From an uncultured Bacilli bacterium (GTDB lineage Bacteria > Bacillota_I > Bacilli_A > RF39 > UBA660): 60,682 bases of DNA. How positions within the stretch are numbered: position 1 is the stretch's first letter; each line of letters opens with the position of its first letter. Location: NCBI GenBank assembly GCA_947591505.1, contig CANQDM010000002.1, positions 1 to 60,682 of the forward strand. Direction: 5' to 3'. The notes beneath the pieces are model-generated. The model made no database searches. It was not told the DNA's origin and was given only the letters and a program-made list of their open reading frames with translations. Position numbers and translations under genes: made by a program. Positions 37,123 through 57,833 of this stretch are shown here, in pieces.

Positions 37123-37748
37123 TATACAATTCCCCTAATATTTTCAATTTTATCTTCAAAACCTTCTGATATTATAAATTCTATAGATGTATTAATTTTT
37201 GATTGAATTAAAATTGATATTTGTCCAAATAAAATTTTACAATAATTTTCAATCTTTTTGCCTTCTTCTATTGAACACTCTTTATCATTATAAGAAAATT
37301 CAAATACTATACTTCTTGAACTTGTTTTGTTTTTGTTTATTGGTGTTCCATAATATACAAAATCCCCATCTTCAAATAAAACTTTTTCTAATGTTTGTTG
37401 TAAATATTCTGGCGATAAATCGCAATTGTTCATTATTGCACCATAAATTTCATTTATTTCATCATCAGATAATCTTTCTATGTGAATATTGTTTCGCAAG
37501 AAAATGTATTTACTTCCTAATGATGAAAATTTTTTATAAAAATTATTATCAGAAATATCATTAGTTGGAATTTTTACATCTAACTTTTCAATTGATAAAT
37601 CTATATTATTGAAATAAACAATTGATTTTAATAAATTTTCAAAACTTTGTTTATATTTAACTTGTAGTTTTAAAAATTCATTTGCTGATATATTTTTTTG
37701 AAATAATTCCTTATAATCATAAGAATCTGGTAAATATCTATATTCCAT
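37122..37748 (-). CDS. candidate immunity protein for the giant effector
   Basis: ATG at 37748 with GGAGGT embedded in the last codons of the giant ORF; the call rests on position only. Confidence 0.45.
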   Translation of the reverse strand: MEYRYLPDSYDYKELFQKNISANEFLKLQVKYKQSFENLLKSIVYFNNIDLSIEKLDVKIPTNDISDNNFYKKFSSLGSKYIFLRNNIHIERLSDDEINEIYGAIMNNCDLSPEYLQQTLEKVLFEDGDFVYYGTPINKNKTSSRSIVFEFSYNDKECSIEEGKKIENYCKILFGQISILIQSKINTSIEFIISEGFEDKIENIRGIV

Positions 37749-37749
37749 C

Positions 37750-46700: not shown

Positions 46701-48765
46701 TAAAATATGAATTTAGAGAATAATACATTGCTCCAATTCCTTCAAATGGAGTTATTAAAACAGATCCAATAGATGCTAATATTGGATGTTCACTAGCATA
46801 TTCTTGATCTTCCAATGTTTTATTGGCTAACCATCTTTTATCAACTTCACTTGATAATACATCATTTAAATAATTATATGCACCATCTATTCCTTCTGTA
46901 TTATAAATATAATTAAATATTAGTTTTTCTTCTTCGCTAACAAATGGTAGCCATTGTAGATAATGGTTAAATAAATCATCATTTGCAGTTACAGGAAATA
47001 AAACTCCATCAACAGATAAATAACCATTAGAAAGGTTTCCACCTTCACCATTAAGCATACAACTAATTAAATTTACAATTTCTTCTTTACTAGTTACTCT
47101 AATAGTTGGTATAGCATCATAATCAGATGGAGATATTATTTTATTTTTATTTGCTTCTTGTAATGCTTTTATTGTTTCTAGAGCTTCACTATTAAAAGTA
47201 TTATTAGTATCAAAATCATCTGCATGCAAATATGAATCAACATTATTAATGTAATAATCAACTTCTTCTTTTATTGCATCACATATGTTTTGATATGTAC
47301 TAACTTTGACCTCTAATTGCTTTATTTCTGAATTTATGTTTTCTAAATTTTCATTTCTATTATTTACTAAATCACCATATTTATCTGATATTGAATAAAA
47401 GTATTGTTCTTGAGCTTCTGTTTCTGTCCAACGATAAATTGTTTTTTCATTTTTTGAAAATAAAGGTTTAATAGTTTCTGCAGTTAAATTGGCTCGTAAT
47501 TCTGCAAGCAATTCGCTATCTTTATACATTTCTTCAAAGGTTAGCGGTGTATATGAAACATCATCTACATAACCAGACATATAAGGATCTTCATATTTAT
47601 AATTGATATTACCATTTTCATCAGTATATTCCCATGCTACAACTGTAGAATTTAAAATGTCATCTAAATTTTCGCCCATTTTAAGTCTAGTTATAAAATT
47701 CATTATAGCATCTATTTCATAATTTTCTGCTTCTAATTTTTGCTTATATAATTCATTTAATCTATTAGTATCATCATTTATTGCTTGCTCTAAATCTGTT
47801 ATATTATTATATTCTAAACCATATGCTTGCAAATATGAAGCATATATCATATCTACTCTTCTAGTATTATCTTCATCATTTTCTATTTGTTCAAATAATT
47901 CTTCTTGACTTATTTTTCCGTTTAATACTTGCTCTATATCCATCTCATTTAAGCCAAAAGATTCTAATAACATTCTATATGTATCAACATCTATTTCTGT
48001 AACAACTTCTTGTCCCCAGGAATTGATGGTAGTTATAGTAACTTTTGTAGCATCTTCAACATTATTATTACTAGCAGAACTATCAAACGAATTTTCAGGC
48101 ATATCAAAAGATACACCAGCACCACTATTGTTATTACCTTGATTAGCATTTTGATTGCTAGTCATATTAACATTAGTAGAAGATGATGTTTGATTAGATG
48201 TAGCATTATTATTTTTAGCATTAAATGGTGTTTTATTATCTTGTGGCTTAACATTCATATCATTTTGTGCTTTTGATTCATTATTACTTGATAAGCTATT
48301 TCCATTCATAGTAGAATTGGAATTTTGATTTGTAGAATTAATATCAGGTGCTTTTGAAGAATCAACATTAGTTGAATTATTTATATTACTACTATCATTT
48401 AAATTAGAATTATTACTAGTTTGATTAACTTGTTGTTGAGATGCATCATTAACTTGAGAAGATCCAGAAGTTGTAGGACCAGAAGAAGCACTTGTATTTG
48501 TGGTTGATACTGAATCAGCTGTTTTGCTTTCATCCACAGTAGTCGAAAAATCCATAGTTTCTGTTTGACTACTCGATCTTCCTCCATATGTATTTGCAGT
48601 TCCAGCATTATAATTTTGGGGTGCTTCGCTTTGTGTAGAAGTTAAACTAGCTTTTTCACTTTTATTTGCATCAGAATATAACTTATCTAATTTTACATCT
48701 TCAAAATCTACTGATGCATTAACGCCATCTATTTGTTTTGCACCAGATACACCAAAATTACTCAT
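37750..48765 (-). CDS. giant (3,671 aa) multidomain putative secreted effector/toxin
   Basis: Uninterrupted 11-kb ORF. S/N/T/Q-rich N-terminal ~200 aa. Transglutaminase-like Cys1385/His1415/Asp1434. HEFGH at 2374-2378 (41632..41646). C-terminal papain-like Cys3464 (GCAYMA), His3625 (GGHAMLIT), SSWSG. Confidence 0.8.
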   Translation of the reverse strand: MSNFGVSGAKQIDGVNASVDFEDVKLDKLYSDANKSEKASLTSTQSEAPQNYNAGTANTYGGRSSSQTETMDFSTTVDESKTADSVSTTNTSASSGPTTSGSSQVNDASQQQVNQTSNNSNLNDSSNINNSTNVDSSKAPDINSTNQNSNSTMNGNSLSSNNESKAQNDMNVKPQDNKTPFNAKNNNATSNQTSSSTNVNMTSNQNANQGNNNSGAGVSFDMPENSFDSSASNNNVEDATKVTITTINSWGQEVVTEIDVDTYRMLLESFGLNEMDIEQVLNGKISQEELFEQIENDEDNTRRVDMIYASYLQAYGLEYNNITDLEQAINDDTNRLNELYKQKLEAENYEIDAIMNFITRLKMGENLDDILNSTVVAWEYTDENGNINYKYEDPYMSGYVDDVSYTPLTFEEMYKDSELLAELRANLTAETIKPLFSKNEKTIYRWTETEAQEQYFYSISDKYGDLVNNRNENLENINSEIKQLEVKVSTYQNICDAIKEEVDYYINNVDSYLHADDFDTNNTFNSEALETIKALQEANKNKIISPSDYDAIPTIRVTSKEEIVNLISCMLNGEGGNLSNGYLSVDGVLFPVTANDDLFNHYLQWLPFVSEEEKLIFNYIYNTEGIDGAYNYLNDVLSSEVDKRWLANKTLEDQEYASEHPILASIGSVLITPFEGIGAMYYSLNSYFTGQKIRRVDVYSSGDIWRTQVASDIAKNSETLSFLYSTGMSMIDSLELIGISVATGGVATPLISAATMGSRAYVSTLNDALDRGLSDGEAVALAFTSSVVETAMESYSVSHLLNLEEKLSENVLKLTNKIASNISNPTIANLVTKSFYVGASALSQGFVEGEEEFTTEILNYVADIFIAKDLSNYTQSINNYILNGDDENTALIKTMKDFSNQAFQAFLGGFVSGITFGSFGGTKTTVRASYAIANNMYNKLNGTTKAQQFAQVLEINRSELQAYYDVVQKSKNGEVLTDSEISFLRHGTIEMQISKYMKDKAKARLRGILKDVKIYTDSKGMNNGKPIDITDIDDYSKAAHDFAEGNKALEALLLTSYQNGIETHASCGGHIGEYGEHSPYISFKITPTFSKYLPSILSALDGYDFDLSFQKSLSRDIPYSIAFYPHNYDSELFNILNSVIGTTVSDSFVLSTNMQKIQNIYELINKIDVEFVLNIKNEMHGSTNEFSYYAKLDSAFIHGESVTSEELTSKLSGIEEILNSSLESENSPSSNNSSENAEDTIPLKEKIKERIFDLKTPAEIEEFVKERLSELESISEEKTVGQNYTDSFQNFISEVIHFKPADKIMNHDCPDLVYDDISPYIELINSLKSGNDYNEPILFTKIFEIINNYLPSNDVGFKRLDCYASHLEDGKVSIRDIIANSCAFCSEKAGLAHNLFKFLGIDSEFASGIRNGENHAYNLIYPNGYGTEPVVIYDPSFSLDFVKDSSRYSLGFYYSLKGEELIKFNQGLPIKIDTIKAENYYKKLYDSVLSDATHIKEDITYNFGLKKYSAYKERILKEIRTFEQETWLWHNESSEFYSDTEYFYELENKLSKNIEVNFEEQDIYILMDAIRYKYGMQSKVFLNNPQLSEYIPYIKSISLDGDISVISKQIDFLETTLINFINNNVDTIMTDNPYSGKFGKEGLSLALSSLRSIIANPNYRDLLIDQEKLDLVMDYEYLKENENGLKRLERKYSDLIEKIWENSLDSSIQDKNFSVLFSNIFGPLNYQADNLINRQDQHSTSLITSNLIATYGSTTRRIGFIYPSDSHIISASAWDLNSNVFGKGIKNKEKGTILVTPAALEQEGMKITLENGESPYFSTQYNEVLVDSKPCGILYIGYGEKDLNSDYNKAILMAKKYNLPFYEIDMLDYEDTLTANDKYYIAYHSIYSYLGLSIDSFLGTDDNSVKLFTLIIDIVNKNKELIADKFLELKRNNKLSKENIQLVLEENLDSITKSILDSIKSGNLETNSYIRRINLLEQELNEAIEDLNKINESGSLGTYGIDIEYHDDLKFVSDDILKSFANFSKNISIFPNDMENVQEIVIPLSLSDLQRKYSTRIYFDIKTREFYDYDAMRNLILERIAEENSLEYYTKLENKIFAAETMIKYPDSFEFSISEDEFFKINTDVFTFLLDPRTILFKLSSGMNVYVVDNFESLEKVTNDVNLFNEEYFLYDITSKKIYKPEDLEEVFKQRKEQYIIDEIEMANDLASQNESYEIKLESLSDIEKIVDKLDNSTLSYVVLSEHADYKIFIPTTLEELETIKKLYSSDDKILFYTKKIGLQEYEETKKYFREGLYDSVASKTFSNLMSAVLEKAKLNGKSDVATIIANIEKIKTLNKNFGVKFTLAEEGYTAKNEPIFVGYKAYDNFNEMRVFFHEFGHSMFDAIFKAKIPRNYLSVLSKVQNHISKNSDLISRFFKNFYFAYGSVAEQTEQIFLNNYEKILTEQVAALDKQTLQDILFDSTDGHATFDDNALENYRKEVFENEARKIKSNIKSNLLNQQTVCYPDISGLFHDLFLGSDKLVLVNQFGEIERLAPDTTIYQHEEDYYKNVAAISLSLNEQVAAYTTLKFMDAIYGTQNINVLENLLGKDYIDFMENIWNGFVNFFETGNISDIDVLTDEDELIFSPYIKELLDGNILAPFSDTIEGIDTIVLSSKNISGNPNILHNNYNFDQIVFNINAINCFANKKIVIKVPNKIFLELFEARIEDINNKDYITLCYDGDFEQKMFSINEIDKLFERIDECSISPIISDVIDNSIKIPKLANAYYMEMSPSSVEHLDDSERIINVRNRVFKGGLAFGKNNPIAMATNENSIYRVTGMNQVTDILNSGFVRPKEGKLKGGHINEVFWTQGSDKTYYYDKRPVLEVSVDKLADNQMGAISINDLQAIWIFDEQQGKYVNRLKELKRLIEINNSKIELNANIITTYLVSNKFDDANILRILEESQLLENRLISTINTNGEIDNLIKEIKNITEETLPQGYKDLTELKERIIDKLIETNSLLKLSNQQFYDLIEDDLIMLRKVIGHEKLTYFITKNLADLPNKFASLFDGLSNDELLKIFDNEEITNYFDSLSDEQFLEIAKAFIKYNSNVIVISNNFRNKLFKIDPKLLSNFFSTVFFDLGKTLEADIDSGTIFIEEFLKNYGNDDIMINNPQLAAKVLQCLPFGFHGEYDSQKEVLRNFDKKAKQNLCNKIISNALIEIPTDATIRKDGYFDIKYTIDGIEYIKKSMKSYGKLDLLTELVSQYDAILSDKLKIVSITEDVIKNTLSINDNTKDGLNVITLEINGEIEKHLVRFRYGSTDLTRLARSKQINSVKIISIEPFIQSTFDLKVDDKYSVYKLTYTIDNQEFEQYFPTIGDTLYLDNFITLNDLYNATNFKIEPINLDSLPKSQFNINKYQNSNEIFKDNAYGGNQSDVREIVVSALSGEQLSEINRQKSEILIKIIKNYYPDAQETDLKNIAKAYEECGCAYMAIANSFITYMNSIENGSNIFLEKMGFNLSVTDGITKSPNLEAVALDFYLHIHKVVENNSTIDELLKNSHGMSAMIYETVTNSYFASKGINVELNHNMFDLEDYKKDIVINSLNNKGFWILGSSGFDLESLDNNLTVGDDAALTHIKIEGKTLKNIGGHAMLITDMFENGDLMVSSWSGKYRFIPNSHTTRISIYSIIFNIINGG

Positions 48766-48805
48766 ACCTTCACCACCTTTTACTCTGTTTTATTTTTATT
48801 CAATT

Positions 48806-49048
48806 TTAATATGATTTTCTTAATGTACTATATCTACTATTAGAAATGGATGTTGCAGAACTTGATAAAGATTTTTTTATGTTATTAATTGCATCACCAT
48901 TATATGTTTTATCATTTATTAAAATTGTTCTATTCATAGTATTTTCTAATTGTTGAACACTTTGATTTAAATTATTTATTTGATTAGTTATTAAATATAA
49001 TCTATACGAAATATTTGCATATTTTTTCTTTTTTACTGCATCATCCAT
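48806..49048 (-). CDS. small helical protein (effector-associated, candidate chaperone/adaptor)
   Basis: ATG at 49048 with GGTGA 8 nt upstream, right after the previous stop; the call rests on position. Confidence 0.45.
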   Translation of the reverse strand: MDDAVKKKKYANISYRLYLITNQINNLNQSVQQLENTMNRTILINDKTYNGDAINNIKKSLSSSATSISNSRYSTLRKSY

Positions 49049-49049
49049 T

Positions 49050-49346
49050 TTAAATATCACCATCAAATCTATTTATTGTTTCTATACTTACTCTATCATA
49101 TCTAGCAATTGCATTACTTAATATATTCACATATTTAGCTCTTTTAGTTGAAATTTTAGAAACGCTAGTTTTACTATCGATTATTTTTTCTAAAAAATCA
49201 GCCGTATTAGATGTATTATAATTTCTTAAACATAATTGCATTTTTTCAAATATTTTACCTAATACCTGCTTTTCTTCTTCTGAATAATAATTAATTTGTT
49301 CAATATTTTTTTCTAATAACGATTTATTTAAAATATTCTCATTCAT
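49050..49346 (-). CDS. small helical protein (98 aa, effector-associated)
   Basis: Tiled ORF between the WXG-like genes and the giant gene. Confidence 0.5.
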   Translation of the reverse strand: MNENILNKSLLEKNIEQINYYSEEEKQVLGKIFEKMQLCLRNYNTSNTADFLEKIIDSKTSVSKISTKRAKYVNILSNAIARYDRVSIETINRFDGDI

Positions 49347-49349
49347 ATA

Positions 49350-49925
49350 CTATTCTCCTAAATAAAAGTCAAAATCATTTATTTTAATTGCTTCTAAAGC
49401 ATTTATTTTGTTTTTTACTTCTTTTTCTATATTTTCTATTTTATTAAATAAATTAACTACTTGGGTTTTAATCGTAGATAGTTTATTTCTTACACCAACA
49501 ATTACATCTTTTTGAAGTGATATGCTATATATTTCAGAATAATAAAAACTTCTATCAATGTAATTAAAACTATTAATTATATTTGATGCTTTATTATAAC
49601 AATCATCTATTTGACCAAGTAAGGAATTTTTATTATTCAAATTACATTTTATTTTGTTTCCAAATTCATGGTATTTAGTATATACTAATTCAAATATTTC
49701 TTTTTTAGATTTTAGTGCTTGCAAAAACAAATCAGATTCTTGCTTTTCCAAATAAATCTCATTATCAAATTTAACAGAATTACCATCTTGCCAATTAATA
49801 CAACTATCTTTTAATTGATTAAATAGATTTAATTTAATATTTTCGTATTCATCAATTAAAGCGGTTAATCCCATTATGTTATTGCTTAATTCTCCCATAT
49901 CAACATCTATTATAATTACCACCAT
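49350..49925 (-). CDS. WXG-motif-containing helical protein (191 aa; start uncertain)
   Basis: INWQDGNSVKF resembles the W-x-G turn of WXG100 proteins; no good RBS at any of the first three ATGs. Confidence 0.45.
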   Translation of the reverse strand: MVVIIIDVDMGELSNNIMGLTALIDEYENIKLNLFNQLKDSCINWQDGNSVKFDNEIYLEKQESDLFLQALKSKKEIFELVYTKYHEFGNKIKCNLNNKNSLLGQIDDCYNKASNIINSFNYIDRSFYYSEIYSISLQKDVIVGVRNKLSTIKTQVVNLFNKIENIEKEVKNKINALEAIKINDFDFYLGE

Positions 49926-49991
49926 TTTCTAAATATAAAATAACATTTAACATGTTATTTTATATTTAGAAAAAGATATATATCTTTTTCT
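49925..49991 (-). terminator. two overlapping perfect hairpins (22-bp and 11-bp stems) after the WXG-like gene
   Basis: 49925-49946 pairs with 49952-49973; 49968-49978 pairs with 49981-49991; the two share 49968-49973. Confidence 0.5.
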
Positions 49992-49998
49992 AAACAAA

Positions 49999-50682
49999 CT
50001 ATTCACCAGTAGTATTATTGAAAGCATCTGAGATACCTGAAGATACTTCTTGGTATTTTTGAACAGCTTTATTAATTTGACCTTGTAATGATTCTTCTCC
50101 ATCAGTTAAATATTTAAATATTTTATGAAGTTCACCACTTACAGTTACAAAGCATTGTTTTAATGCTTCACCTTGTCCATGACCAATGAAAGCACTTTCA
50201 GCATCTAGATTATTTGCTAAAGTTTCAAGATCAGATTTGATTCCTTCTTCAACTTCACCTAATCTACTTGCAATTTGACTTGCTTGTCCTTCTTCAATTG
50301 TTACATTACCAGCATTTTCAGGTTGAATATCAGAAACATTTAAAGTTAGATCTACAGTATCGATTGTTGCCAAGCTAGGAATTTCTCCTCCTGTATTTTC
50401 AGCCCAATTCTTTCCTGCACTTTCAACTGCTCCTCTATAAGCATCAAATGCTTGTGTAATATTTTCTCCAGATGCTTTTACTGTTTGAGCAAATCCATTG
50501 AAGAAATCTACTGCTTCTGGAGCATACCATACTGTAGACATAGGAACAATAATATCGCTATGTAATCTTTCTACGATATTTTGTCCAGCTTGTTGTGCAG
50601 TAGAATTAATTACATCTCTTAGTGCATTTACTTGTTCACAATTATATCCAGATGTTTCTCCAGATCCACCAAATAAACCCAT
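49999..50682 (-). CDS. WXG100-superfamily / LXG-like T7SS substrate candidate (227 aa)
   Basis: ATG at 50682 with GGGAGGAG 6 nt upstream. Helical, A/Q/E/G-rich and GC-richer than its surroundings. VWYAPEAVDFF lies at the position of the WXG turn. First gene after the promoter. Confidence 0.55.
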   Translation of the reverse strand: MGLFGGSGETSGYNCEQVNALRDVINSTAQQAGQNIVERLHSDIIVPMSTVWYAPEAVDFFNGFAQTVKASGENITQAFDAYRGAVESAGKNWAENTGGEIPSLATIDTVDLTLNVSDIQPENAGNVTIEEGQASQIASRLGEVEEGIKSDLETLANNLDAESAFIGHGQGEALKQCFVTVSGELHKIFKYLTDGEESLQGQINKAVQKYQEVSSGISDAFNNTTGE

Positions 50683-50764: not shown

Positions 50765-50794
50765 ATTATACCCCCCCCAGAAACCAATTGTCAA
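50765..50794 (-). promoter_or_regulatory. sigma-A-type promoter TTGACA-N18-TATAAT with a G8 tract in the spacer
   Basis: Minus strand reads TTGACAattggtttctGGGGGGGGTATAAT, about 80 nt upstream of ATG 50682. Confidence 0.6.
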
Positions 50795-50803: not shown

Positions 50804-50820
50804 CAAATTTGTACACAAAT
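50804..50820. repeat. 17-bp direct repeat CAAATTTGTACACAAAT, left copy (candidate target-site duplication)
   Basis: Perfect match to 52531..52547; contains the internal dyad ATTTGT-AC-ACAAAT. Confidence 0.9.
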
Positions 50821-52530
50821 GTAAAATTTTTATTTAACTTCCCGAATTTTTATTTTTGTGCATTTAACTTTGGAAATTTATGGGGGATTAAATTAAATAC
50901 AAAAAATTTCAAAGCATATCATTGATCAATAGGCAGGTTCAAATACGCAATAATTTTGTCAAATAGATTTTATCTGTTTGACCAGCAAAGCGTTCAAGTA
51001 TTTGAATCTGGGTTCCTGTTGTCAATGAGGAATTTGAAATTTTTTATATTTAATTTTATAATATCTTTTCGTATCTTAGCTTAGAAAGGATTTTATTTTT
51101 ATGAAAAATGCTAAGAAAAACAAACATTTATCTTTTGAAGATAGATGTGTTATTGAAGAATTTTTAAATTATGGCTATTCTTTCTCTAAAATTGCCAATC
51201 GTTTATCCAAAGATAGAACTACTATTGCTAGAGATGTTAAAAAACATCGTTTTTTAAGAACTACTGCCTTTTGCAATAATCTTCCTTGTTGTTTTGAAAA
51301 CAAACCTCCTTATGTTTGCAATGGTTGTAAAAAATTTAATTATTGTAAAAGAATTCGTTATTCTTATTCTCATGATATTGCTTATAATGAATACAAAAAA
51401 GCTTTAATTAATCATCGTTCTCATTTAAAAATTACCAAAGATGAAATTGCTTCTATTAACGATATTATTTCTCCTTTAATGATTCACAAACATCATTCCG
51501 TTAATCAAGTATATATTGAACACCCTGAATTATTACCTTTTTCTAAATCCACTTTCTATAAATATATCGATTTAGGTATCCTTAATGTCCGTAACATTGA
51601 TTTACATAGAAAAGTTAGATTTAGAGTTAAAAAAGAATATGATTATACTCGACTTAAAACTAATCCTAAAATTAAAATCGCTCGTTTTTTCACTGACTTT
51701 AATTCTTATATGGAATTTCATTCTAATGCTTCTGTTGTTGAAATGGATACTGTTATTGGCACTTCTGGTGGTAAAGGTGGTAAATGTTTCCTTACTCTTT
51801 TATTTAGACAATATAACTTTATGCTCATTTACTTACTTCCTTACAAACAATCTAAATATGTTATTCAAGTTTTTAACCATCTTAAATCTCTATTAGGTAT
51901 TGATGAATTTAAACGTTTATTTGAAGTTATACTAACTGACAATGGCACAGAATTCTCTGACCCTGATTCTATTGAAATGGATTTTAACACTGGTGAAAAA
52001 GTTTGTTCCCTTTTCTATTGTGATCCAAATTGTTCTTGGCAAAAGGGTTCCATCGAAAAAAATCACGAATACATTCGTTATGTTTTACCTAAAGGTTCTT
52101 CTTTTGCTTCCTTAACTCAAGATGATTGTTACTTACTTGCTTCTCATATCAATTCTATTCCTAGAATTTCTTTAAACAATCATTCTCCTTATGAGTCGAT
52201 TTATCTTTTTTTAGGTCAATCTAATTTAGATAAATTACAAATAAAAAAGATCGAGTCTGATGACATTGATCTTTCCATTAGATTACTTAAAAAGTAATCT
52301 TCTCTAAGCTAAGATACATTACAATTTACCATCTTATTTCCGGGCAGTTACTCTCACTCAAAATTTTTTTATTCAACTGCACGTCTTTTTGAATGCAATA
52401 ATTTTTTCGCTTCGTGTCTATATTTTAATATTTTTTATCCTTTTTTGCAACTTTTTCTCACTTTTTTCGGGCATTTACCTATATAATCCTTTTTTCTTAT
52501 TTACCCGTGCACTTTCTTTTTAATTTAACG
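50821..52530 (+). mobile_element. IS30-family insertion sequence (outer boundaries uncertain)
   Basis: Bounded by the 17-bp direct repeat. Contains a TTGAAA-N17-TATAAT promoter (51034..51062), a 15-bp perfect IR GTATCTTAGCTTAGA (51071-51085 / 52303-52317) and the only long plus-strand ORF in 58 kb. Confidence 0.6.
51101..52297 (+). CDS. IS30-family DDE transposase
   Basis: N-terminal HTH (LSFEDRCVIEEFLNYGYSFSKIANRLSKDRTTIARDVKKH) and catalytic core with MDTV...LTDNGTEF...EKNHEYIR. Confidence 0.85.
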   Translation: MKNAKKNKHLSFEDRCVIEEFLNYGYSFSKIANRLSKDRTTIARDVKKHRFLRTTAFCNNLPCCFENKPPYVCNGCKKFNYCKRIRYSYSHDIAYNEYKKALINHRSHLKITKDEIASINDIISPLMIHKHHSVNQVYIEHPELLPFSKSTFYKYIDLGILNVRNIDLHRKVRFRVKKEYDYTRLKTNPKIKIARFFTDFNSYMEFHSNASVVEMDTVIGTSGGKGGKCFLTLLFRQYNFMLIYLLPYKQSKYVIQVFNHLKSLLGIDEFKRLFEVILTDNGTEFSDPDSIEMDFNTGEKVCSLFYCDPNCSWQKGSIEKNHEYIRYVLPKGSSFASLTQDDCYLLASHINSIPRISLNNHSPYESIYLFLGQSNLDKLQIKKIESDDIDLSIRLLKK

Positions 52531-52582: not shown

Positions 52583-52607
52583 AAAGAGGACATATCAAGT
52601 CCTCTTT
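52583..52607 (-). terminator. intrinsic terminator after the essC/esaB-like operon
   Basis: 9-bp perfect stem AAAGAGGAC/GTCCTCTTT, 7-nt loop, TTCATTTT tail on the minus strand, 26 nt after the stop. Confidence 0.6.
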
Positions 52608-52632
52608 ACGGTATCAGATTTTATCTCACCTT

Positions 52633-52899
52633 TTACTCTTTAGATGTCAAAAGTATTAACTCAGTTATATTTCTTATATTTGTGTCGATAACGACTTTAT
52701 TATTATTGTATACTTCACTAGTTAATTTATTCATTAAAATATAATTTGCATTTGGGTTTAAAACTCCTCCTGTTAAATCAGAAACTGATTTAGCAAGCAT
52801 TTTTTTTATTTTCCAAACAATTTCATTAACAGGTATAAACACATCAAATGAATAACCGATTTCCGGAACAAATAATTTTATTAAAACTTTATTATTCAT
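52633..52899 (-). CDS. esaB: YukD/EsaB-like ubiquitin-fold T7SS protein
   Basis: 88 aa. VLIKLFVPEIGYSFDVFIPVNEIVWKIKKML...ILMNKLTSEVYNNNKVVIDTNIRNITELILL fits the beta-grasp YukD pattern. ATG 52899 overlaps the essC stop by 8 nt. Confidence 0.6.
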   Translation of the reverse strand: MNNKVLIKLFVPEIGYSFDVFIPVNEIVWKIKKMLAKSVSDLTGGVLNPNANYILMNKLTSEVYNNNKVVIDTNIRNITELILLTSKE

Positions 52900-55800
52900 C
52901 TTCTTCATTCTCCTCAGACAAAATATCATTAAATTCTATTAATTTAATAAGTTCCGCATTGCTTTCACTTATATAAAATCCATAATTATTTTGATATTTT
53001 TGTTGCATTTCTTTTGTTATTTTGGCAATTCTAAAGTTTTGTTGCTCTGCAAATCCTTTACCTACCCATATACCATCTGTACTATTTTTAACTTTTGAAT
53101 ACCATACATCCATATCTAAAGTTTTAAAATTCTTTGTGCTATCACATAAAATCATATTTGAGTTTTCACTTGATTTTATTTCATTAAATAATGCTTCCAT
53201 ATTCGCTGATTCTGCTTTTGCTTTTATTTTTTCTAAACCATAGAATATATATAACACATTTGCTGATTTATGTTGTTTTTGAAAATCAGTTAATGCTTTT
53301 ACTGCATTTTCTAAGTTGTCACTATAATAATTAATCTTTTTATTGTTATATTCTTTATTAGCAGATAATAATTGCTTGTTACCATCAATAAATATTATAG
53401 TTAAATTTGGTATTCTTAAAAGAACATCAAGTAATGAATCCATAAAACAATTAATATAAGTTAATTTATTAGATGATATAGATGTTGCAATAGAAGATTT
53501 AAAATCATATTTAATTGTTTTTAATGTATCTTTAGAAATACCAATAGGTACTTTTTCTAATGTAGATATTTCCTTTTCAATTATATCAAATGTAATTTTT
53601 TCTGGTAATGTTGGAATAACTTTTGCGTTGTCTTTAAATACTTCTTTTGCTTTTTCAGTAAATTTTTCAAGATATTCATTTAAATTATTTTCTTCAGAAA
53701 CAATAGAAGAAGTTTGAAATTCATGTATTCCATCAACATTAGCAAGCCCTCTTCCTAATCTATCTCTTGGTTTAATTTTGCTTCTCATATCAAACACACC
53801 ATAATAGTCTGAAGAATCTGTTAAATGTAAAGCATATTTATTATTAAAACATTGTGAAACTCTTCTTCCAATAGTTGCAGGCGCACTACATGTTAATATT
53901 AAATATATTCCATATCTTTCACAATCTCTACCTATTGAAGCAACATCTTCATAAATTGTATTATATACTTCTAAAATACTTTCATAGTTGTTAAGAATGA
54001 AAATAACTTGAGGTAACTTTTTATCATTTTTTAAATTATAATTTTCTAAATTACCATAATTTAAAAGTAATGATTTTCTAGTTTTTAATTCATCTTGAAT
54101 TAATTTAAATAAGTTTTTAATTCCTTCATCATCTTCCATATATATGATTCCACCAAATTGAGGTAATCTACTGAACATTCTTAATTGCTCAGAGCCATAA
54201 TCAACAGCATATATATTAATTTCATTAGAACTATGCGATTTACAAATTGAATAAATAATTGAATCAAGTAAATTTTCTCTTTCTATTTCATCATTTCCAT
54301 ATATTATTGTATTTCCATTATCTTTAAGAGAATAAACCAACAAGCCTTGTTCTTGTTTTTCTGGTGCATCATACTCACCAACGATTGCTTCAACATTATA
54401 AGGTTTAGGACTAAATTCATATTTTTTCTCTAAATTATCAACTAAAATATTAGGATCAATGTCATTTAGCCATAATCTTTTTGCTTTTTTGTTTGCTGTT
54501 TTTGCTACTTCAATTATATTTTTCATAATTGCTGCAATTTGTTCACCTTGTGCTTCAACTTTAATATTGTTACCAGCTTGAATACTTTTAATTATACTAC
54601 CTGTTTCATCAATAAAATTAATGCTCTTATCAACTTGCTTTACTATTTTTTCTGATGGATAATACTTTGCACCACACCATGCTGATTGTCCTAGTGCAAA
54701 GTATTCATCATATCCAACTTGCAAATAGAATCGACCTAGTTGTTTTAAACTAGCTGCTTCAGGTCTTTTTAATACTTCTTTACTATCAGAAACATCTTGT
54801 ACTTTTAAACAAACTCTAAACTTTGTATTAGACCAAATTTGATCATTAACTACACCACTAGGTTTTTGTGTTGCTAATATTAAATGCACTCCTAATGAAC
54901 GACCAATACGAGCTACACTTATCAAATTATCCATAAATTCAGGTTGTTGTTCTTTTAATTCAGCAAATTCATCACATACTATAAATAAATGAGGTATTGG
55001 CTCTGTAAGTTTTCCTTCTTTATAAAATCTTTGATATTTATAAATATCAATTGTACTTTCGCCTAAAGAATCTCTAGCTTCATTAAATATTTTTTGTCTT
55101 CTTTTAATCTCACTATCAATACTTACCAAAGTTCTATCCATTTCAGCTTTATCTAAGTTTGTTATTGTTCCAGCTAAATGTGGAAGTGTTATACCTGTTG
55201 CTTTATTTTCAAAAGCACCAGCCAAGCCACCACCTTTATAATCAATTAATATAAATGCAACATCATCTGGACTATAATTTACAGCCATTGATAAAATGTA
55301 AGTAATTATAAATTCTGATTTACCAGATCCTGTCATACCAGCAATTAAACCATGTGGTCCATGAAATTTTTCGTGTAAATCTAAATACATTAAATTTCCT
55401 GTTGCATCTACACCAATTTCTGCTTTCAAACTTATTGTAGAATCATTAGTATCCCAACGATTCATTATATTAAGTTGTTCTACTTTACCTATTTTTTCCA
55501 TTTCTAAAAATGATATAGAATCAGGTAATTGACTATCTTCTTCATCAAACTCCACAGGTATATTTGATATAACTTTAGCAATATCCATCATATTAATTCC
55601 ATAATGAAGTTCATGTTGAAAATTCACTATTTCTTGATTATCAAAGCTATTTTTCAAAAGTGTTGGTGATGAACCTAAATTGATAAAGTTATTAAATTTA
55701 CTTGGTAATTTACTAATTTGATTTTCCATAATTAATACAGAATAACCAATATTATTATCTACTTCAGAAATTAAATCAATAAAATTCAAATTTTTAACTT

Positions 55801-57469
55801 GAGAATAATCATCAGTTATTATTAAATAATATGGTTTAAATAATCTCGGCTCTTCTTTAGAAAGTTCAATTCGATTTTGAAGTTCCATATTTAAATAGTC
55901 AATAATTGCTTTAGCATTTTCTCTATTTGTTGAAAAGAATCTAACACTTTTATCATTAGAAAAAGAATGATTTAAATATTTTATATATTCCCATTTTTCT
56001 TCATTTTCTTTATTTGTAAACACTATTATTTTAAGATCATCATAACTATAAAATGTAATTAATTGTAAAATAATATTTTGAATTAAACAATAATATTCAT
56101 GATTATTTCCTAAAAGGGCTGTTAATTTATTTTTGAACAAAGAATATTTTATTGGTACATTATGAATATATTTAAACTCTTCTACCATTGCATCAGCTTG
56201 TTTTCTTAAATCATCTTCTTCAACAGTAAAACCTTCATCTGGATAGTTGACTTTTGCATCTAGCAATTCATCACCAATTCCAAGTCTTATCTCTAAAAAA
56301 TCATTTTGATCAATTCTTTTAGACCAAAAATTAAATTTACTAGTTGAATATATTCTATTTAGACAATCTTCTATTGTAACTAGATTTTCATTTAATATAC
56401 TTTTTTGTAATTGTTGCTCTTCTTTTAATTCTTCTTTTTTGGTATCCAAATACTTAGTATATTTTTCAATTAAATTTTTCTTTCTTACTTTTCTTAAATG
56501 CTTATTAAAAAATTTAGTTATCATTGGCCATAATAGCATTGATAAAACCATTGCGCCAGATGTTGCTAATGAAGGCCAAGATTTTTGTAAAGTGGTTTCT
56601 CCTGTTGTAATTTTAACAATATTATTAGCAAGCATTATTCCAGAAACCAATCCCATAGTAAGCATAGGTCCAACAGTTAAAATTAAAGGCATTTGGTCTT
56701 CACCTTCAGGTCTTGGTGGAGGGCTTAAATTTATTTCTTTTGTTGTTATATTTCTTCTCATACGAGGTGCTTTTGAAAAATATTGTTCTTTAGTGTATAA
56801 ATCGTTATCTTTTACTTCAAAATCTTTTGGTGCTTCACCATATGGTATTACAATTTTTTTAAGACTAGTTTTTTCCAAATCAATTAATACATTATTACCT
56901 GGATTATTTATAAAAAGAATCTTATTTAGAATTAATATTTTTAATCCAAAAATATGTATTTCATCACCAATACTTATATTTATATTATTATTTAAATTAC
57001 TATTTTTTATTATTCTAATGTTATTTTTGTAAATTGCATATTCCCCTAAACTTAGTAAAATACTATCGTTAGACATACTAATTTCAGCAGTGGAATCACC
57101 CAATAAAGGACAATTATATTTTATATTACAATTTTCAGCTGTACCAATAATTAAATCTGTATTTTCATCAAATTGATAAGAAGAAAGGCTATTATCAAAA
57201 GAATTAGTAACATATATTAAATATTTTGCAGTTGCTTTTTGAAGCATATAAAATTTTTCTGCTTCCAACTGTAAACTCTCGACAATGTTATTATTTTCAA
57301 TTACCACAACATCACTAGTTGAATTTAAATACCAAGCACCATTTTTAGCTTCTATATTAATAAGTTTCGATTCTTCATCTATATTTTCATCAAAACTAAA
57401 ACTTCCCATTACCTTTTGTGGAAGGGAAAAATTAAGTATTTTGGTATTTAAATATAAATATATTTTCAC
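52892..57469 (-). CDS. essC: EssC/YukB-type FtsK-SpoIIIE ATPase of a type VII(b) secretion system
   Basis: 1,525 aa. N-terminal FHA-like region, two TM helices, then HGLIAGMTGSGKSEF Walker A (about 55318..55340) and FIVCDEFAELK Walker B. Two further ATPase-sized segments follow. GTG start with AGGAGA upstream. Confidence 0.88.
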   Translation of the reverse strand: MKIYLYLNTKILNFSLPQKVMGSFSFDENIDEESKLINIEAKNGAWYLNSTSDVVVIENNNIVESLQLEAEKFYMLQKATAKYLIYVTNSFDNSLSSYQFDENTDLIIGTAENCNIKYNCPLLGDSTAEISMSNDSILLSLGEYAIYKNNIRIIKNSNLNNNINISIGDEIHIFGLKILILNKILFINNPGNNVLIDLEKTSLKKIVIPYGEAPKDFEVKDNDLYTKEQYFSKAPRMRRNITTKEINLSPPPRPEGEDQMPLILTVGPMLTMGLVSGIMLANNIVKITTGETTLQKSWPSLATSGAMVLSMLLWPMITKFFNKHLRKVRKKNLIEKYTKYLDTKKEELKEEQQLQKSILNENLVTIEDCLNRIYSTSKFNFWSKRIDQNDFLEIRLGIGDELLDAKVNYPDEGFTVEEDDLRKQADAMVEEFKYIHNVPIKYSLFKNKLTALLGNNHEYYCLIQNIILQLITFYSYDDLKIIVFTNKENEEKWEYIKYLNHSFSNDKSVRFFSTNRENAKAIIDYLNMELQNRIELSKEEPRLFKPYYLIITDDYSQVKNLNFIDLISEVDNNIGYSVLIMENQISKLPSKFNNFINLGSSPTLLKNSFDNQEIVNFQHELHYGINMMDIAKVISNIPVEFDEEDSQLPDSISFLEMEKIGKVEQLNIMNRWDTNDSTISLKAEIGVDATGNLMYLDLHEKFHGPHGLIAGMTGSGKSEFIITYILSMAVNYSPDDVAFILIDYKGGGLAGAFENKATGITLPHLAGTITNLDKAEMDRTLVSIDSEIKRRQKIFNEARDSLGESTIDIYKYQRFYKEGKLTEPIPHLFIVCDEFAELKEQQPEFMDNLISVARIGRSLGVHLILATQKPSGVVNDQIWSNTKFRVCLKVQDVSDSKEVLKRPEAASLKQLGRFYLQVGYDEYFALGQSAWCGAKYYPSEKIVKQVDKSINFIDETGSIIKSIQAGNNIKVEAQGEQIAAIMKNIIEVAKTANKKAKRLWLNDIDPNILVDNLEKKYEFSPKPYNVEAIVGEYDAPEKQEQGLLVYSLKDNGNTIIYGNDEIERENLLDSIIYSICKSHSSNEINIYAVDYGSEQLRMFSRLPQFGGIIYMEDDEGIKNLFKLIQDELKTRKSLLLNYGNLENYNLKNDKKLPQVIFILNNYESILEVYNTIYEDVASIGRDCERYGIYLILTCSAPATIGRRVSQCFNNKYALHLTDSSDYYGVFDMRSKIKPRDRLGRGLANVDGIHEFQTSSIVSEENNLNEYLEKFTEKAKEVFKDNAKVIPTLPEKITFDIIEKEISTLEKVPIGISKDTLKTIKYDFKSSIATSISSNKLTYINCFMDSLLDVLLRIPNLTIIFIDGNKQLLSANKEYNNKKINYYSDNLENAVKALTDFQKQHKSANVLYIFYGLEKIKAKAESANMEALFNEIKSSENSNMILCDSTKNFKTLDMDVWYSKVKNSTDGIWVGKGFAEQQNFRIAKITKEMQQKYQNNYGFYISESNAELIKLIEFNDILSEENEEDE

Positions 57470-57626
57470 ACTACTCTTCTCCTATTTTAAATTATATCAC
57501 ACAATTCATTTTATTTCATTCAATAATATTAACATTTTAATATTATTAAGTAAAATATCAAAAATTATTTAGAAGAAAGTATCTTAATTCATTTTTTAAT
57601 TAATCGTAAAATTTTATAAAATAAAA

Positions 57627-57827: not shown

Positions 57828-57833
57828 TATTAT

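What the first reader, a model, noticed from the sequence alone, without database searches (positions are those of the whole stretch)
52633..57469. T7SSb-like core reduced to EssC + YukD/EsaB-like, with only one canonical P-loop in EssC
essC and a ubiquitin-fold esaB/yukD-like gene are translationally coupled and followed by a clean terminator. No EssA, EssB/YukC or EsaA/YueB-like membrane genes are visible anywhere in the 60 kb; upstream of essC there are only a 66-aa wHTH and a 63-aa ORF. Within EssC I find a single GxxGxGK[ST] (GMTGSGKSE). The places where the second and third ATPase P-loops are expected read IIYGNDEIERENL and SISSNKLTYINC. The missing parts may be encoded elsewhere, or this may be a minimal or divergent apparatus. 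Without an alignment I cannot judge how unusual this P-loop degeneracy is.
Basis: partly seen in the sequence, partly recalled or inferred. Interest (0 to 1): 0.7.

Follow-up and report, generated by a model that had tools for sequence, protein, structure and literature searches.

The report
Stripped-down type VII secretion gene module
This is an intact member of an undescribed, widespread family of type VII protein-secretion loci from uncultured gut Firmicutes that keeps only the EssC motor, a ubiquitin-like helper and small helical proteins, which could make it a natural test of how little machinery this secretion system needs.

Summary
essC (57469..52892, minus) passes NCBI's EssC model. 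An 88-aa gene overlaps its stop codon (ATGAATAA) and is predicted with high confidence to have a ubiquitin-like fold. A terminator follows. No EssA, EssB or EsaA is found in the 60 kb.

A 1.7-kb IS30 insertion separates essC-yukD from a second operon: four small helical genes (one clearly WXG100-like, two weakly, one unassigned), a 3671-aa toxin-like protein and a 212-aa partner.

The module EssC, Ubl and four small genes recurs in nine further genomic settings, seven of them with distinct flanks, always without other T7SS genes nearby. It is under purifying selection (essC dN/dS 0.09).

- **D3 degeneracy is ordinary.** It also occurs in Listeria, Bacillus and S. aureus EssC.
- **Complete loss of the D2 P-loop is not seen in characterised EssCs.** It is replaced by a conserved G-N-D-x-x-E-[RK]-E.
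- **That loss recurs among uncharacterised relatives.** 25 of the 135 nearest cluster representatives that could be assessed lack the GK.

None of the published T7SSa-j gene sets fits. The best reading is a new reduced T7SS variant driven by D1 alone. Unlinked membrane partners cannot be excluded.

The parts
52892..57469 (-). essC (tsxC): 1525-aa membrane FtsK/SpoIIIE-type ATPase. Layout: degenerate FHA region, two TM helices, DUF/D0, D1, D2, D3.
   Evidence: TIGR03928 at 932.5 bits (cutoff 778.4). B. subtilis YukB (PDB 9qks) E 1e-120. dN/dS 0.09 against L001.
56780..57469 (-). N-terminal FHA-like region (residues 1-230). The phosphothreonine-binding Arg, Ser and His are not conserved.
   Evidence: Consensus of 121 sequences. 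PF00498 is annotated on some homologues.
56510..56698 (-). Transmembrane hairpin of EssC (residues about 258-320). These are the only confident membrane helices in the conserved module.
   Evidence: Hydropathy scan (residues 260-281 above threshold; the second helix is read by eye). Aligns to the YukB TM region.
55316..55339 (-). D1 Walker A, GMTGSGKS (residues 711-718). This is the only intact P-loop.
   Evidence: G, T, S, G, K and S are invariant in 121 of 121 family members. D1 dN/dS is 0.033.
54275..54301 (-). D2 pseudo-P-loop, YGNDEIERE (residues 1057-1065), at the Walker A position.
   Evidence: Gap-free alignment to the GSAGYGKS of Geobacillus EssC. E1063 and E1065 are invariant, and position 1064 is R or K in 106 of 121.
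53978..54007 (-). D2 Walker B equivalent, VIFILNNYES (residues 1155-1164). The Asp is replaced by an invariant Asn.
   Evidence: Canonical EssCs read hhhhDNYD. N1160 is present in 121 of 121.
53447..53482 (-). D3 pseudo-P-loop, SISSNKLTYINC (residues 1330-1341).
   Evidence: Position aligned to T. curvata GDTECGKS and to the degenerate Listeria and Bacillus D3.
52633..52899 (-). yukD/esaB-like (tsxB) gene, 88 aa, ubiquitin-like beta-grasp. Its start overlaps the essC stop.
   Evidence: Sequence. AF2 pLDDT 94.4. Foldseek hits to ubiquitin and the EccD5 Ubl domain. hhalign against canonical YukD gives 65% probability. The Murimonas family member weakly hits PF08817.
52583..52607 (-). Intrinsic terminator ending the essC-yukD transcription unit.
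   Evidence: It lies inside the stretch conserved with L001.
50817..52521 (+). IS30-family insertion sequence (transposase 51101-52297). It splits the module and is not part of the system.
   Evidence: NF033563 at 105.9 bits. Absent from L001. Flanked by duplicated TTTGTGTACAAATTTG.
50765..50794 (-). Consensus sigma-70-type promoter (TTGACA, 18 nt, TATAAT) for the second operon. It is intact just beyond the IS.
   Evidence: 12 of 12 match. The region is conserved with L001.
49999..50682 (-). 227-aa protein. Both halves weakly resemble WXG100, suggesting a tandem WXG100-like protein.
   Evidence: TIGR03930 E 0.003 (sub-threshold). Two hhalign matches, residues 12-95 and 124-223, each about 30% probability. 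Iterated HMM reaches annotated EsxA.
49350..49925 (-). 191-aa protein with an N-terminal WXG100-like domain and a helical extension.
   Evidence: hhalign against a WXG100 profile gives 88.7% probability over residues 1-86. Conserved in position in clade I loci.
49050..49346 (-). 98-aa helical protein, possibly WXG100 or Lap-like.
   Evidence: hhalign 31% probability. Iterated HMM. Conserved in position.
48806..49048 (-). 80-aa helical protein of unknown family. It is the last conserved gene of the six-gene module.
   Evidence: Conserved in clade I loci. No family match.
37750..48765 (-). 3671-aa protein with no signal peptide. Candidate polymorphic toxin substrate.
   Evidence: No Pfam, NCBIfam or PDB hit. 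Residues about 266-1009 and about 2940-3671 recur in large proteins at other EssC loci. DNA homology with L001 stops at 45715, inside the gene. Weak Transglut_core hit at residues 1364-1425. HEFGH motif.
37122..37760 (-). 212-aa partner of the giant protein's C-terminal domain. Candidate immunity protein.
   Evidence: Homologues at 38-48% identity lie directly after proteins that share the giant's C-terminal 730 aa in L013, L019 and L022.

Best explanation
The locus is a functional, reduced type VII secretion module, and none of the published gene sets T7SSa-j fits it.

**Conserved parts (shown)**
- EssC (FHA region, two TM helices, D0, D1, D2, D3).
- A translationally coupled ubiquitin-like YukD/TsxB protein.
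- Four small helical proteins in a second operon: the 191-aa one is clearly WXG100-like, the 227-aa and 98-aa ones weakly, and the 80-aa one is unassigned.
- In this window an IS30 element has landed between the two operons without damaging either.

**Proposed mechanism (inferred)**
- EssC forms the membrane ring.
- YukD braces its D0, FHA and D1 regions, as in the B. subtilis YukB-YukD structure.
- D1 is the only ATPase.
- D2 and D3 have become nucleotide-free scaffolds that still stack under D1 and dock substrates.
- The WXG100-like proteins are co-secreted partners or targeting factors.
- The cargo is variable, very large, signal-peptide-less toxin-like proteins, each followed by a cognate partner gene. 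Here these are the 3671-aa protein and its 212-aa partner.

**Link between D2 and the missing partners (inferred)**
In S. aureus the D2 Walker motifs are needed to hold EssC together with EsaA, EssA and EssB. The joint absence of those partners and of the D2 P-loop fits one evolutionary simplification.
For: **Identity of the parts**
- EssC.
- Ubiquitin-like protein.
- WXG100-like proteins.

**Recurrence of the module**
- The order EssC, about 88 aa, about 220 aa, about 190 aa, about 98 aa, about 80 aa is seen in L001, L003, L004, L045, L046 and one locus listed without DNA.
- L006 shares the first three genes by sequence, and L007 the Ubl and 191-aa genes.
- Flanks are unrelated: the oriC region, sporulation genes, SecE-NusG, RF2-FtsEX, collagen-like genes.
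- DNA shared with the window is confined to 45715-57530.

**No other T7SS genes nearby**
- None within about 10 kb in 40 related loci, nor in the window.

**Selection**
- dN/dS: essC 0.09, yukD 0.11, D2 0.077, small proteins 0.21-0.37.
- D1 Walker A is invariant. The D2 site is a conserved non-P-loop motif.

**Expression signals**
- Terminator after yukD and an intact 12 of 12 consensus promoter after the IS.

**Cargo**
- Large Pfam-less proteins adjoin EssC in most loci, and the C-terminal domain travels with the 212-aa partner.

**Literature**
- Only D1 activity is essential in B. subtilis, and D2 is non-catalytic (PMC4925161).
- S. aureus D2 Walker motifs are needed for association with EsaA, EssA and EssB (PMC9436818).
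- YukD binds YukB D0, FHA and a D1 hairpin (PMC12637312).
Against: - No experiment exists, and all hosts of the close clade are uncultured.
- Whole genomes could not be scanned, so unlinked EssB-, EsaA- or EssA-like or non-homologous membrane partners remain possible.
- The retained FHA region suggests that some binding partner still exists.
- WXG100 assignment is solid only for the 191-aa protein. It is weak for the 227-aa and 98-aa proteins and absent for the 80-aa one.
- The giant protein has no recognisable LXG-type targeting domain. Its link to EssC rests on gene neighbourhood alone. The structure model of its conserved N-terminal region was poor and matched nothing.
- The IS30 insertion may affect co-regulation of the two operons in this particular strain.
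Confidence: 0.6

Rival explanations
1. The apparatus is not minimal. The usual or analogous membrane components (EssB-like scaffold, EsaA-like wall-spanning protein, EssA, or a kinase and Ig-domain proteins as in T7SSd/e/j) are encoded elsewhere in the chromosome, and this locus is only the motor-plus-substrate part.
For: - The FHA region that binds EssB in S. aureus and B. subtilis is retained and constrained (dN/dS 0.19).
- Relatives do carry extra parts. Murimonas has a kinase-TPR protein, a Zn-ribbon protein, a Big_2 lipoprotein and a DUF5050 protein. Clade II has a Zn-ribbon-TM protein and a HerA-like ATPase.
- Whole genomes were not searchable here.
Against: - In every described T7SS type the core genes cluster with essC (PMC11217815).
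- Nine further settings of this module (seven with distinct flanks) and 40 related loci show none within about 10 kb.
- The D2 Walker motifs, which S. aureus needs to hold EsaA, EssA and EssB, are gone.
Confidence: 0.27
2. The locus is a decaying or redundant remnant of a T7SS. It was disrupted by IS30 and has dead ATPase sites, and a complete ess locus elsewhere does the work.
For: - An IS30 element sits in the middle of the module.
- Two of the three P-loops are lost.
Against: - All genes are intact.
- dN/dS is 0.03-0.11 across the EssC ATPase domains D0-D3 (0.19 in the FHA region) and 0.11 for yukD.
- The degenerate D2 motif is itself invariant at key positions in 121 family members.
- The IS lies in the intergenic spacer and leaves both the terminator and the promoter intact.
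- The family has at least 120 clusters at 90% identity.
Confidence: 0.03
3. The module serves the neighbouring conjugation system. It could export factors needed for DNA transfer, as ESX systems do on mycobacterial plasmids, or EssC could act as a DNA or coupling ATPase.
For: - The window carries a full Gram-positive T4SS 6 kb or more from the module: VirD4, VirB4, pilin, M23 peptidase, an adhesin and a sortase.
Against: - In the seven other close (clade I) settings examined the module lies among housekeeping genes, and no T4SS set adjoins it (one TrbL_4-domain gene lies about 8 kb away in L003).
- The conjugation region has its own VirD4 coupling protein.
- EssC matches the full-length secretion ATPase model and pairs with YukD and WXG100-like genes.
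- It is not established that the module lies inside the mobile element.
Confidence: 0.05

Closest known systems
T7SSb (Ess/Yuk system of S. aureus, B. subtilis and Listeria)
   Same: - The EssC architecture is the same (FHA region, two TM helices, D0-D3), and the protein passes the NCBI EssC equivalog model.
- A separate ubiquitin-like YukD/EsaB protein is present.
- WXG100-type small proteins are present.
- Large toxin and partner genes lie next to the locus.
- D3 lacks ATP-binding motifs, as in Staphylococcus.
   Different: - No EssA, EssB/YukC or EsaA/YueB.
- Only 27-28% identity to Listeria and Bacillus EssC.
- The D2 Walker A GK[ST] and the Walker B Asp are lost.
- yukD follows essC with overlapping codons, instead of preceding essB.
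- No Pfam-recognisable WXG100 or LXG gene is present.
T7SSj (Clostridium) and the T7SSj-like locus of Murimonas intestini DSM 26524
   Same: - Murimonas EssC is the nearest cultured relative found (35% identity) and groups with this radiation rather than with T7SSb.
- It shares the FHA-bearing EssC, a YukD-like gene after essC and a WXG100 pair.
   Different: - Murimonas has a Ser/Thr kinase with a TPR domain (TsjD-like), a Zn-ribbon protein, a Big_2 lipoprotein and a DUF5050 protein, and it keeps GSGKT in D2.
- None of these is in the window or in clade I loci.
T7SSg (Acetivibrio and Paenibacillus), the simplest published set
   Same: - A small gene set built around TsxA, TsxB and TsxC, with paired WXG100 proteins (PMC11217815).
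   Different: - TsgC lacks FHA domains.
- T7SSg has the DUF5050 beta-propeller TsgL and adjoining Tad pilus genes.
- Here FHA is present and there is no DUF5050 or Tad gene.
Sister clade II of uncultured 'Tenericutes/Bacilli' gut MAGs (loci L010-L039)
   Same: - 37-39% identical EssC.
- The same YukD-like family.
- A similar run of small genes after essC (about 220, 97 and 93 aa).
- Homologues of the giant protein and its 212-aa partner are present.
   Different: - yukD lies upstream of essC.
- Extra conserved genes are present: a Zn-ribbon-TM protein (about 78 aa), a HerA/DUF87 ATPase (about 647 aa) and a 147-aa helical protein.
- D2 reads GSGKE, so the lysine is kept.

Membership tests
EssC/EccC (TsxC) T7SS ATPase | Membrane-anchored protein with a tandem FtsK/SpoIIIE domain array that passes the curated EssC model | tested here: met
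   TIGR03928 at 932.5 bits against a cutoff of 778.4, covering 5-1295 of 1296 model positions. TM hairpin. YukB E 1e-120.
EssC/EccC (TsxC) T7SS ATPase | Catalytically competent D1 (Walker A GxxGxGK[ST] and Walker B hhhhDE) | tested here: met
   GMTGSGKS and LFIVCDEFAE, invariant across the family.
EssC/EccC (TsxC) T7SS ATPase | Nucleotide-binding D2 (Walker A GK/GR[ST]), as in the Geobacillus, S. aureus and T. curvata proteins | tested here: not met
   GNDEIERE replaces GSAGYGKS, and the Walker B Asp is Asn. Binding itself was not measured.
YukD/EsaB (TsxB) | Small ubiquitin-like beta-grasp protein without a C-terminal Gly-Gly, encoded next to essC | tested here: met
   AF2 pLDDT 94.4. Foldseek finds ubiquitin-like proteins and the EccD5 Ubl domain, TM-score 0.72-0.76. 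The protein ends in ...LLTSKE. It overlaps the essC stop.
YukD/EsaB (TsxB) | Sequence match to PF08817 | tested here: not met
   No hit even at E 5, and none annotated on 114 homologues. Only indirect links exist: hhalign 65% probability, and the Murimonas family member hits PF08817 at E 0.003, below the cutoff.
T7SSb | EssB/YukC pseudokinase membrane protein | tested here: not met
   Absent from the window and from about 10 kb on each side in 40 related loci. The rest of the genome was not testable.
T7SSb | EsaA/YueB and EssA/YueC membrane proteins | tested here: not met
   The same searches apply.
T7SSb | A WXG100 EsxA gene in the cluster | tested here: inconclusive
   No gene passes PF06013 or TIGR03930. 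The 191-aa protein's N-terminus matches a WXG100 profile at 88.7% probability. The 227-aa and 98-aa proteins match weakly.
T7SSc/d/e/j | Membrane Ser/Thr kinase TsxD (and PPM phosphatase TsxF where applicable) | tested here: not met
   No Pkinase or PP2C hit in any window ORF of at least 90 aa. The kinase is present in Murimonas.
T7SSf | TsfF phosphatase, TsfJ (DUF6382 plus FHA) and TsfV (AAA+) | tested here: not met
   No such domains in the window.
T7SSg/h | EssC without FHA, TsgL (DUF5050) or an EspG-like protein, and adjoining Tad pilus genes | tested here: not met
   An FHA region is present. No DUF5050 or Tad genes.
Polymorphic toxin substrate of T7SS (LXG or Rhs type) | [quoted passage not shown] | tested here: inconclusive
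   - Met: a conserved N-terminal region, a break in homology inside the gene, and a C-terminal domain that travels with the 212-aa partner.
- Not met: no LXG or Rhs hit, and the structure model was uninformative.

The most novel reading that the evidence does not exclude
EssC plus the ubiquitin-like protein is a self-sufficient translocon.

- In this lineage the EssC ring (two TM helices per subunit) would be the whole membrane channel.
- It would be powered by a single ATPase domain, with D2 and D3 reduced to nucleotide-free docking rings.
- It would export WXG100-like proteins and multi-thousand-residue toxins across a walled, spore-forming Firmicute envelope without EssB, EsaA or EssA.

That would make it an eleventh T7SS subtype and the smallest natural one.
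Probability: 0.3. Interest if true: 0.8.

Novelty: new variant of a known kind. Interest (0 to 1): 0.6.

Why it matters
What forms the T7SSb channel, and what the accessory membrane proteins and the second and third ATPase domains contribute, are open questions.

- **A natural reduction experiment.** This widespread family keeps EssC, YukD and small helical proteins, has lost the D2 nucleotide site and still appears to be under selection. If no partners exist elsewhere, it would point to the EssC-YukD unit as the minimal secretion machine and give a simpler target for reconstitution and structure work.
- **Extension of the T7SSa-j catalogue.** That catalogue was built from RefSeq isolates. This family extends it into uncultured gut Bacilli.
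- **New candidate cargo.** It links the system to a class of very large toxin-like proteins with no database annotation.
- **D2 as an evolving feature.** The graded series GK[ST], then GKE, then E[RK]E offers a comparative way to study how D2 function changes.

Tried and rejected
- **Source of the window.**
  - Megablast of the locus against PLSDB plasmids found nothing.
  - An exact-protein lookup of EssC found nothing on record, so the source contig is not in the collection.
- **Giant protein.**
  - Pfam, NCBIfam and PDB sequence searches gave nothing above noise, apart from a sub-threshold Transglut_core hit.
  - A homologue search with its conserved N-terminal region returned only 3 proteins.
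  - The AF2 model built on them had pLDDT 61.5, and Foldseek gave no match with E below 0.1.
  - Nothing is therefore claimed about its fold.
- **Wall-less host.**
  - I considered that the host might lack a cell wall, which would make EsaA unnecessary.
  - I rejected this for the close clade. Its contigs carry SpoIVA and SpoVIF, a sortase, LPXTG-type proteins, and LysM, M23, VanY and SLH genes.
- **EssC as a coupling ATPase for the conjugation system.** Rejected, because a separate VirD4 is present and the other settings are chromosomal.
- **Conserved upstream membrane gene.** The ORFs directly upstream of essC in clade I loci are unrelated to each other and to EsaA, EssA and EssB.
- **Boundaries of the mobile element.** I looked for att sites or a tRNA target. 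There is no tRNA and no convincing long direct repeat.
- **Literature.**
  - No paper describes a T7SS subtype beyond j, or this arrangement.
  - The supplements of the T7SSc-j paper do not mention these taxa.
- **Phylogenetic placement against T7SSc-j.** This was not possible because their sequences were not retrievable here.


Full report
**1. What is at the coordinates**

The window is low-GC DNA (about 25% G+C), and almost all genes lie on the minus strand.

- **essC.** The ORF 57469..52892 encodes a 1525-aa protein. It matches NCBI's equivalog model for Firmicutes EssC (TIGR03928) at 932.5 bits against a cutoff of 778.4, over essentially the whole model. It also matches B. subtilis YukB (PDB 9qks) at E 1e-120. 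It has an N-terminal FHA-like region, a transmembrane hairpin around residues 258-320 and the usual array of FtsK-like domains.
- **The small gene after essC.** It starts at the ATG at 52899, not 52929. This ATG overlaps the essC stop as ATGAATAA and has a GAGGAG ribosome-binding site upstream. An 8- to 11-nt overlap is called in L001, L003, L006, L045 and L046, and a 23-nt overlap in L004 and L005.
- **Terminator.** A nine-pair stem with a T run follows at 52607-52583.

**2. Is the small protein YukD-like?**

- **Sequence libraries.** They say nothing. There is no Pfam or NCBIfam hit even at E 5, and none of 114 database homologues carries a Pfam annotation.
- **Structure.** An AlphaFold2 model built on 35 homologues has pLDDT 94.4 and a beta-beta-alpha-beta-beta grasp topology. 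Foldseek returns ubiquitin, NEDD8, a bacterial Ubl and, at ranks 7-8, the ubiquitin-like domain of EccD5 from the ESX-5 complex (TM-score 0.72-0.76 normalised to the query).
- **Profile comparison.** A comparison with three annotated YukD proteins gives 65% probability.
- **A bridging homologue.** The family member from Murimonas intestini weakly hits PF08817 (E 0.003, below the cutoff).

I accept it as a divergent TsxB/YukD-type protein on fold and context. It fails the Pfam sequence test.

**3.

- In the 94%-identical relative L001, yukD is followed directly by genes of 229, 191, 98 and 80 aa and by a gene of more than 2813 aa.
- In the window the same genes lie at 50682..37750. They are separated from yukD by 1.7 kb that L001 lacks.
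- That segment encodes an IS30-family transposase (NF033563, 105.9 bits) and is bracketed by a duplicated TTTGTGTACAAATTTG.
- The insertion sits between the yukD terminator and a perfect consensus promoter (TTGACA, 18 nt, TATAAT at 50794-50765). Both units remain intact.

**4. The small proteins**

None has a transmembrane segment.

| Protein | Evidence | Reading |
|---|---|---|
| 191 aa | N-terminal 86 residues match a WXG100 profile built from annotated EsxA proteins at 88.7% probability | WXG100-like, well supported |
| 227 aa | Matches the same profile twice, residues 12-95 and 124-223, at about 30% each; sub-threshold TIGR03930 hit | Possibly a tandem WXG100, weak |
| 98 aa | 31% probability | Possibly WXG100 or Lap-like, weak |
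| 80 aa | No match | Unassigned |

Iterated HMM searches from the first three converge on the annotated EsxA of Listeria, Bacillus and Agathobacter. That chain has two steps and could drift.

**5. The module recurs, and nothing else travels with it**

- EssC has at least 120 homologue clusters (at 90% identity) of about 1525 aa and 53-94% identity. Almost all come from gut metagenomes and MAGs labelled Firmicutes or Bacilli.
- I examined nine further settings, seven with distinct flanks: L001 and L002 are near-identical contigs, and L004 and L005 are variants of one site. L004 and L046 also share a syntenic chromosomal site.
- The order EssC, about 88 aa, about 220 aa, about 190 aa, about 98 aa, about 80 aa is seen in L001, L003, L004, L045, L046 and one locus listed without DNA. 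L006 shares the first three genes by sequence, and L007 the Ubl and 191-aa genes.
- Flanks are unrelated: dnaA-rnpA-yidC...parB, SpoIVA and SpoVIF, SecE-NusG, RF2-FtsEX, collagen-like genes.
- DNA similarity between the window and every fetched locus is confined to 45715-57530.
- phmmer with Listeria and Bacillus EsaA, EssA and EssB finds nothing in 40 related loci with about 10 kb of flank. The ORFs directly upstream of essC are unrelated to one another.
- In the window, Pfam on all plausible ORFs of at least 90 aa and NCBIfam on the unannotated ones find no T7SS component, kinase, phosphatase, DUF5050 or DUF6382.
- EssC is thus the only protein of the conserved six-gene module with a confident transmembrane segment. 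The non-conserved giant protein has one marginal hydrophobic stretch (residues 736-754).

**6. It is not decaying**

Comparison with L001 gives these dN/dS values:

| Gene or domain | dN/dS |
|---|---|
| essC, whole gene | 0.09 |
| essC FHA region | 0.19 |
| essC D0 | 0.08 |
| essC D1 | 0.03 |
| essC D2 | 0.08 |
| essC D3 | 0.10 |
| yukD | 0.11 |
| Small proteins | 0.21-0.37 |

**7. The P-loops**

*D1.* GMTGSGKS and the Walker B DEFAE are invariant.

*D3.*
- SISSNKLTYINC lies at the Walker A position.
- Listeria and Bacillus D3 are equally degenerate.
- Zoltner et al. state that Staphylococcus D3 'lacks ATP-binding motifs entirely' (PMC4925161).
- D3 degeneracy is therefore ordinary.

*D2: what changed.*
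- YGNDEIERE aligns without gaps to the FGSAGYGKS of Geobacillus EssC.
- The Walker B reads ILNNYE where canonical proteins read hhhhDNYD.

*D2: the regex caveat.*
'One regex hit' is therefore not diagnostic.
- What differs is loss of GK[ST].

*D2: characterised EssCs.*
- They keep the nucleotide site.
- Geobacillus D2 binds ATP tightly but is non-catalytic.
- S. aureus D2 has GR[ST], and its Walker motifs are needed for EssC to co-purify with EsaA, EssA and EssB (PMC9436818).

*D2: within the window's clade.*
- The replacement motif is conserved in 121 sequences.
- G1058 is present in 117 of 121. E1063 and E1065 are present in all 121. Position 1064 is R or K in 106. N1160 is present in all 121.

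*D2: across relatives, there is a graded series.*

| Group | D2 Walker A site |
|---|---|
| Murimonas | GSGKT |
| Clade II | GSGKE |
| Clade I, including the window | E[RK]E |

*D2: the nearest 150 cluster representatives (50% identity), 135 of which could be assessed.*

| D2 site | Number |
|---|---|
| GK[ST] | 47 |
| GK[DE] | 50 |
| GK followed by another residue | 12 |
| GR[ST] | 1 |
| No GK | 25 |

Almost all of them have Asn at the Walker B Asp position. Loss of the D2 P-loop is therefore unusual compared with every studied EssC. It recurs in this uncharacterised radiation.

**8. The cargo candidate**

- **Domain and structure searches.** The 3671-aa protein has no signal peptide and no significant domain hit.
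- **Motifs.** It contains an HEFGH motif, a sub-threshold transglutaminase-core match at residues 1364-1425 and, by eye, a C-terminal Cys/His pair.
- **Recurrence.** Its residues about 266-1009 and about 2940-3671 recur in large proteins next to EssC in L006, L013, L019, L022 and L034.
- **Partner gene.** In L013, L019 and L022 the shared C-terminal domain is followed by a homologue of the window's 212-aa gene.
- **Break in homology.** Homology with L001 breaks at 45715, about 1000 codons into the gene.
- **Other examples.** L006 has a protein of more than 3100 aa with a weak ADP-ribosyltransferase hit, followed two genes later by an ADP-ribosylglycohydrolase.
- **Reading.** This pattern is typical of polymorphic toxins with immunity partners.
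- **Limit.** The link to EssC rests on neighbourhood only. No LXG-type domain was found, and the model of the N-terminal region was uninformative.

**9. Comparison with what is known**

- **The published catalogue.** Garrett, Higginson and Palmer (PMC11217815) define T7SSa-j from RefSeq. Every type has at least one component beyond TsxA, TsxB and TsxC. The simplest, T7SSg, has an FHA-less ATPase, a DUF5050 protein and neighbouring Tad genes.
- **No later subtype.** I found none in the literature. Their supplements do not mention these taxa.
- **Identity values.** The window's EssC is 27-28% identical to Listeria and Bacillus EssC, 35% to Murimonas and 38% to clade II.
- **Murimonas.** Its locus has a kinase-TPR protein like TsjD, a Zn-ribbon protein, a Big_2 lipoprotein and a DUF5050 protein.
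- **Clade II.** It has a Zn-ribbon-TM protein and a HerA-like ATPase.
- **Clade I.** It has none of these. The simplest reading is stepwise reduction from a T7SSj-like ancestor.
- **Limit.** I could not place the protein on a tree with TscC-TsjC, because those sequences were not retrievable.

**10. Mechanism**

*Shown*
- Intact EssC with a conserved D1.
- A coupled ubiquitin-like protein.
- A conserved second operon of small helical proteins.
- Purifying selection.
- No linked membrane partner.

*Inferred from the B. subtilis structure and mutant work*
- YukD braces EssC at D0, FHA and the D1 hairpin.
- D1 alone drives export.
- D2 and D3 act as nucleotide-free stacking and docking rings.
- The WXG100-like proteins are co-secreted targeting partners.
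- The giant proteins are the payload.

The joint loss of the D2 nucleotide site and of the partners whose assembly depends on it in S. aureus is suggestive, but it is only a correlation.

**11. What remains open**

- Unlinked partners cannot be excluded. The retained FHA region argues that something still binds there.
- Whether the module lies inside the neighbouring conjugative element is undetermined. In the seven other clade I settings examined it is chromosomal, with no T4SS set next to it.

**Verdict**

This is a new variant of a known kind of system. It would be of clear interest to T7SS specialists if whole-genome scans confirm that nothing else belongs to it.

Noticed in passing
window 50817-52521: A 1.7-kb IS30-family element (transposase 51101-52297, plus strand) is inserted between the yukD terminator and the promoter of the next operon. 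It is flanked by a duplicated 16-nt TTTGTGTACAAATTTG and is absent from the 94%-identical relative L001.
   Followed up: yes
window 147-31016: A complete Gram-positive conjugation module: serine recombinase, sortase, VirD4, DpnD/PcfM, DNA methylase, primase, two SSBs, M23 peptidase, VirB4, T4SS pilin and a SpaA/thioester adhesin. A 551-aa membrane protein weakly resembles Mycoplasma ICE and pLS20 conjugation proteins. Whether the T7SS module lies inside this element is unknown.
   Followed up: partly
window 37750-48765 and 37122-37760: A 3671-aa protein with no database domain. It has an S/N-rich N-terminus, an HEFGH motif near residue 2384, a weak transglutaminase-core match at residues 1364-1425 and a C-terminal Cys/His pair. 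Its C-terminal 730 aa travel with a 212-aa partner gene in other genomes.
   Followed up: partly
loci L010-L039 (sister clade of EssC, 'Tenericutes/Bacilli' MAGs): These loci share a different conserved set: a Zn-ribbon-TM protein (about 78 aa), a YukD-like gene upstream of essC, a HerA/DUF87 ATPase (about 647 aa) and a 147-aa helical protein. Their D2 reads GSGKE. This looks like another undescribed T7SS arrangement, with a second ATPase.
   Followed up: partly
L029 (Murimonas intestini DSM 26524, NZ_JANKBI010000005.1): This is the nearest cultured relative. Its locus runs Zn-ribbon protein, Ser/Thr kinase with TPR domain, EssC, YukD, two WXG100 genes, a Big_2 lipoprotein and a DUF5050/TPR protein. 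It would be a culturable entry point to this EssC radiation.
   Followed up: partly
window 49999-50682 versus L001 15062-15745: The 227-aa tandem WXG-like protein is only 72% identical between the window and L001, while EssC is 94% identical (dS 0.70 against about 0.29). Its gene is also more G+C-rich than its surroundings. This hints at recombination or diversifying change in this one gene.
   Followed up: no
window 10341-11099 and 12211-12942: A SUFU-family protein (PF05076, a fold often used by toxin immunity proteins) and an AbiEii toxin homologue sit inside the conjugation region among unannotated genes.
   Followed up: no
window 32710-32753 and 36726-36769: A 44-nt direct repeat (84% identical) brackets the NUDIX, radical-SAM and LysR gene block that lies between the conjugation genes and the giant gene's partner.
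   Followed up: no
window 57627-58025: The 66-aa winged-helix protein and the 63-aa ORF upstream of essC are not found next to the module in any related locus. Homology with L001 ends at 57530, so they are probably local neighbours rather than parts of the system.
   Followed up: yes
L044 (Agathobacter rectalis plasmid NZ_CP143948.1): An annotated WXG100 gene, a YukD gene, a separate FHA protein and essC occur with no annotated EssA, EssB or EsaA. Here the FHA region is a separate gene. This is another reduced-looking T7SS locus in a cultured gut Clostridium relative.
   Followed up: no
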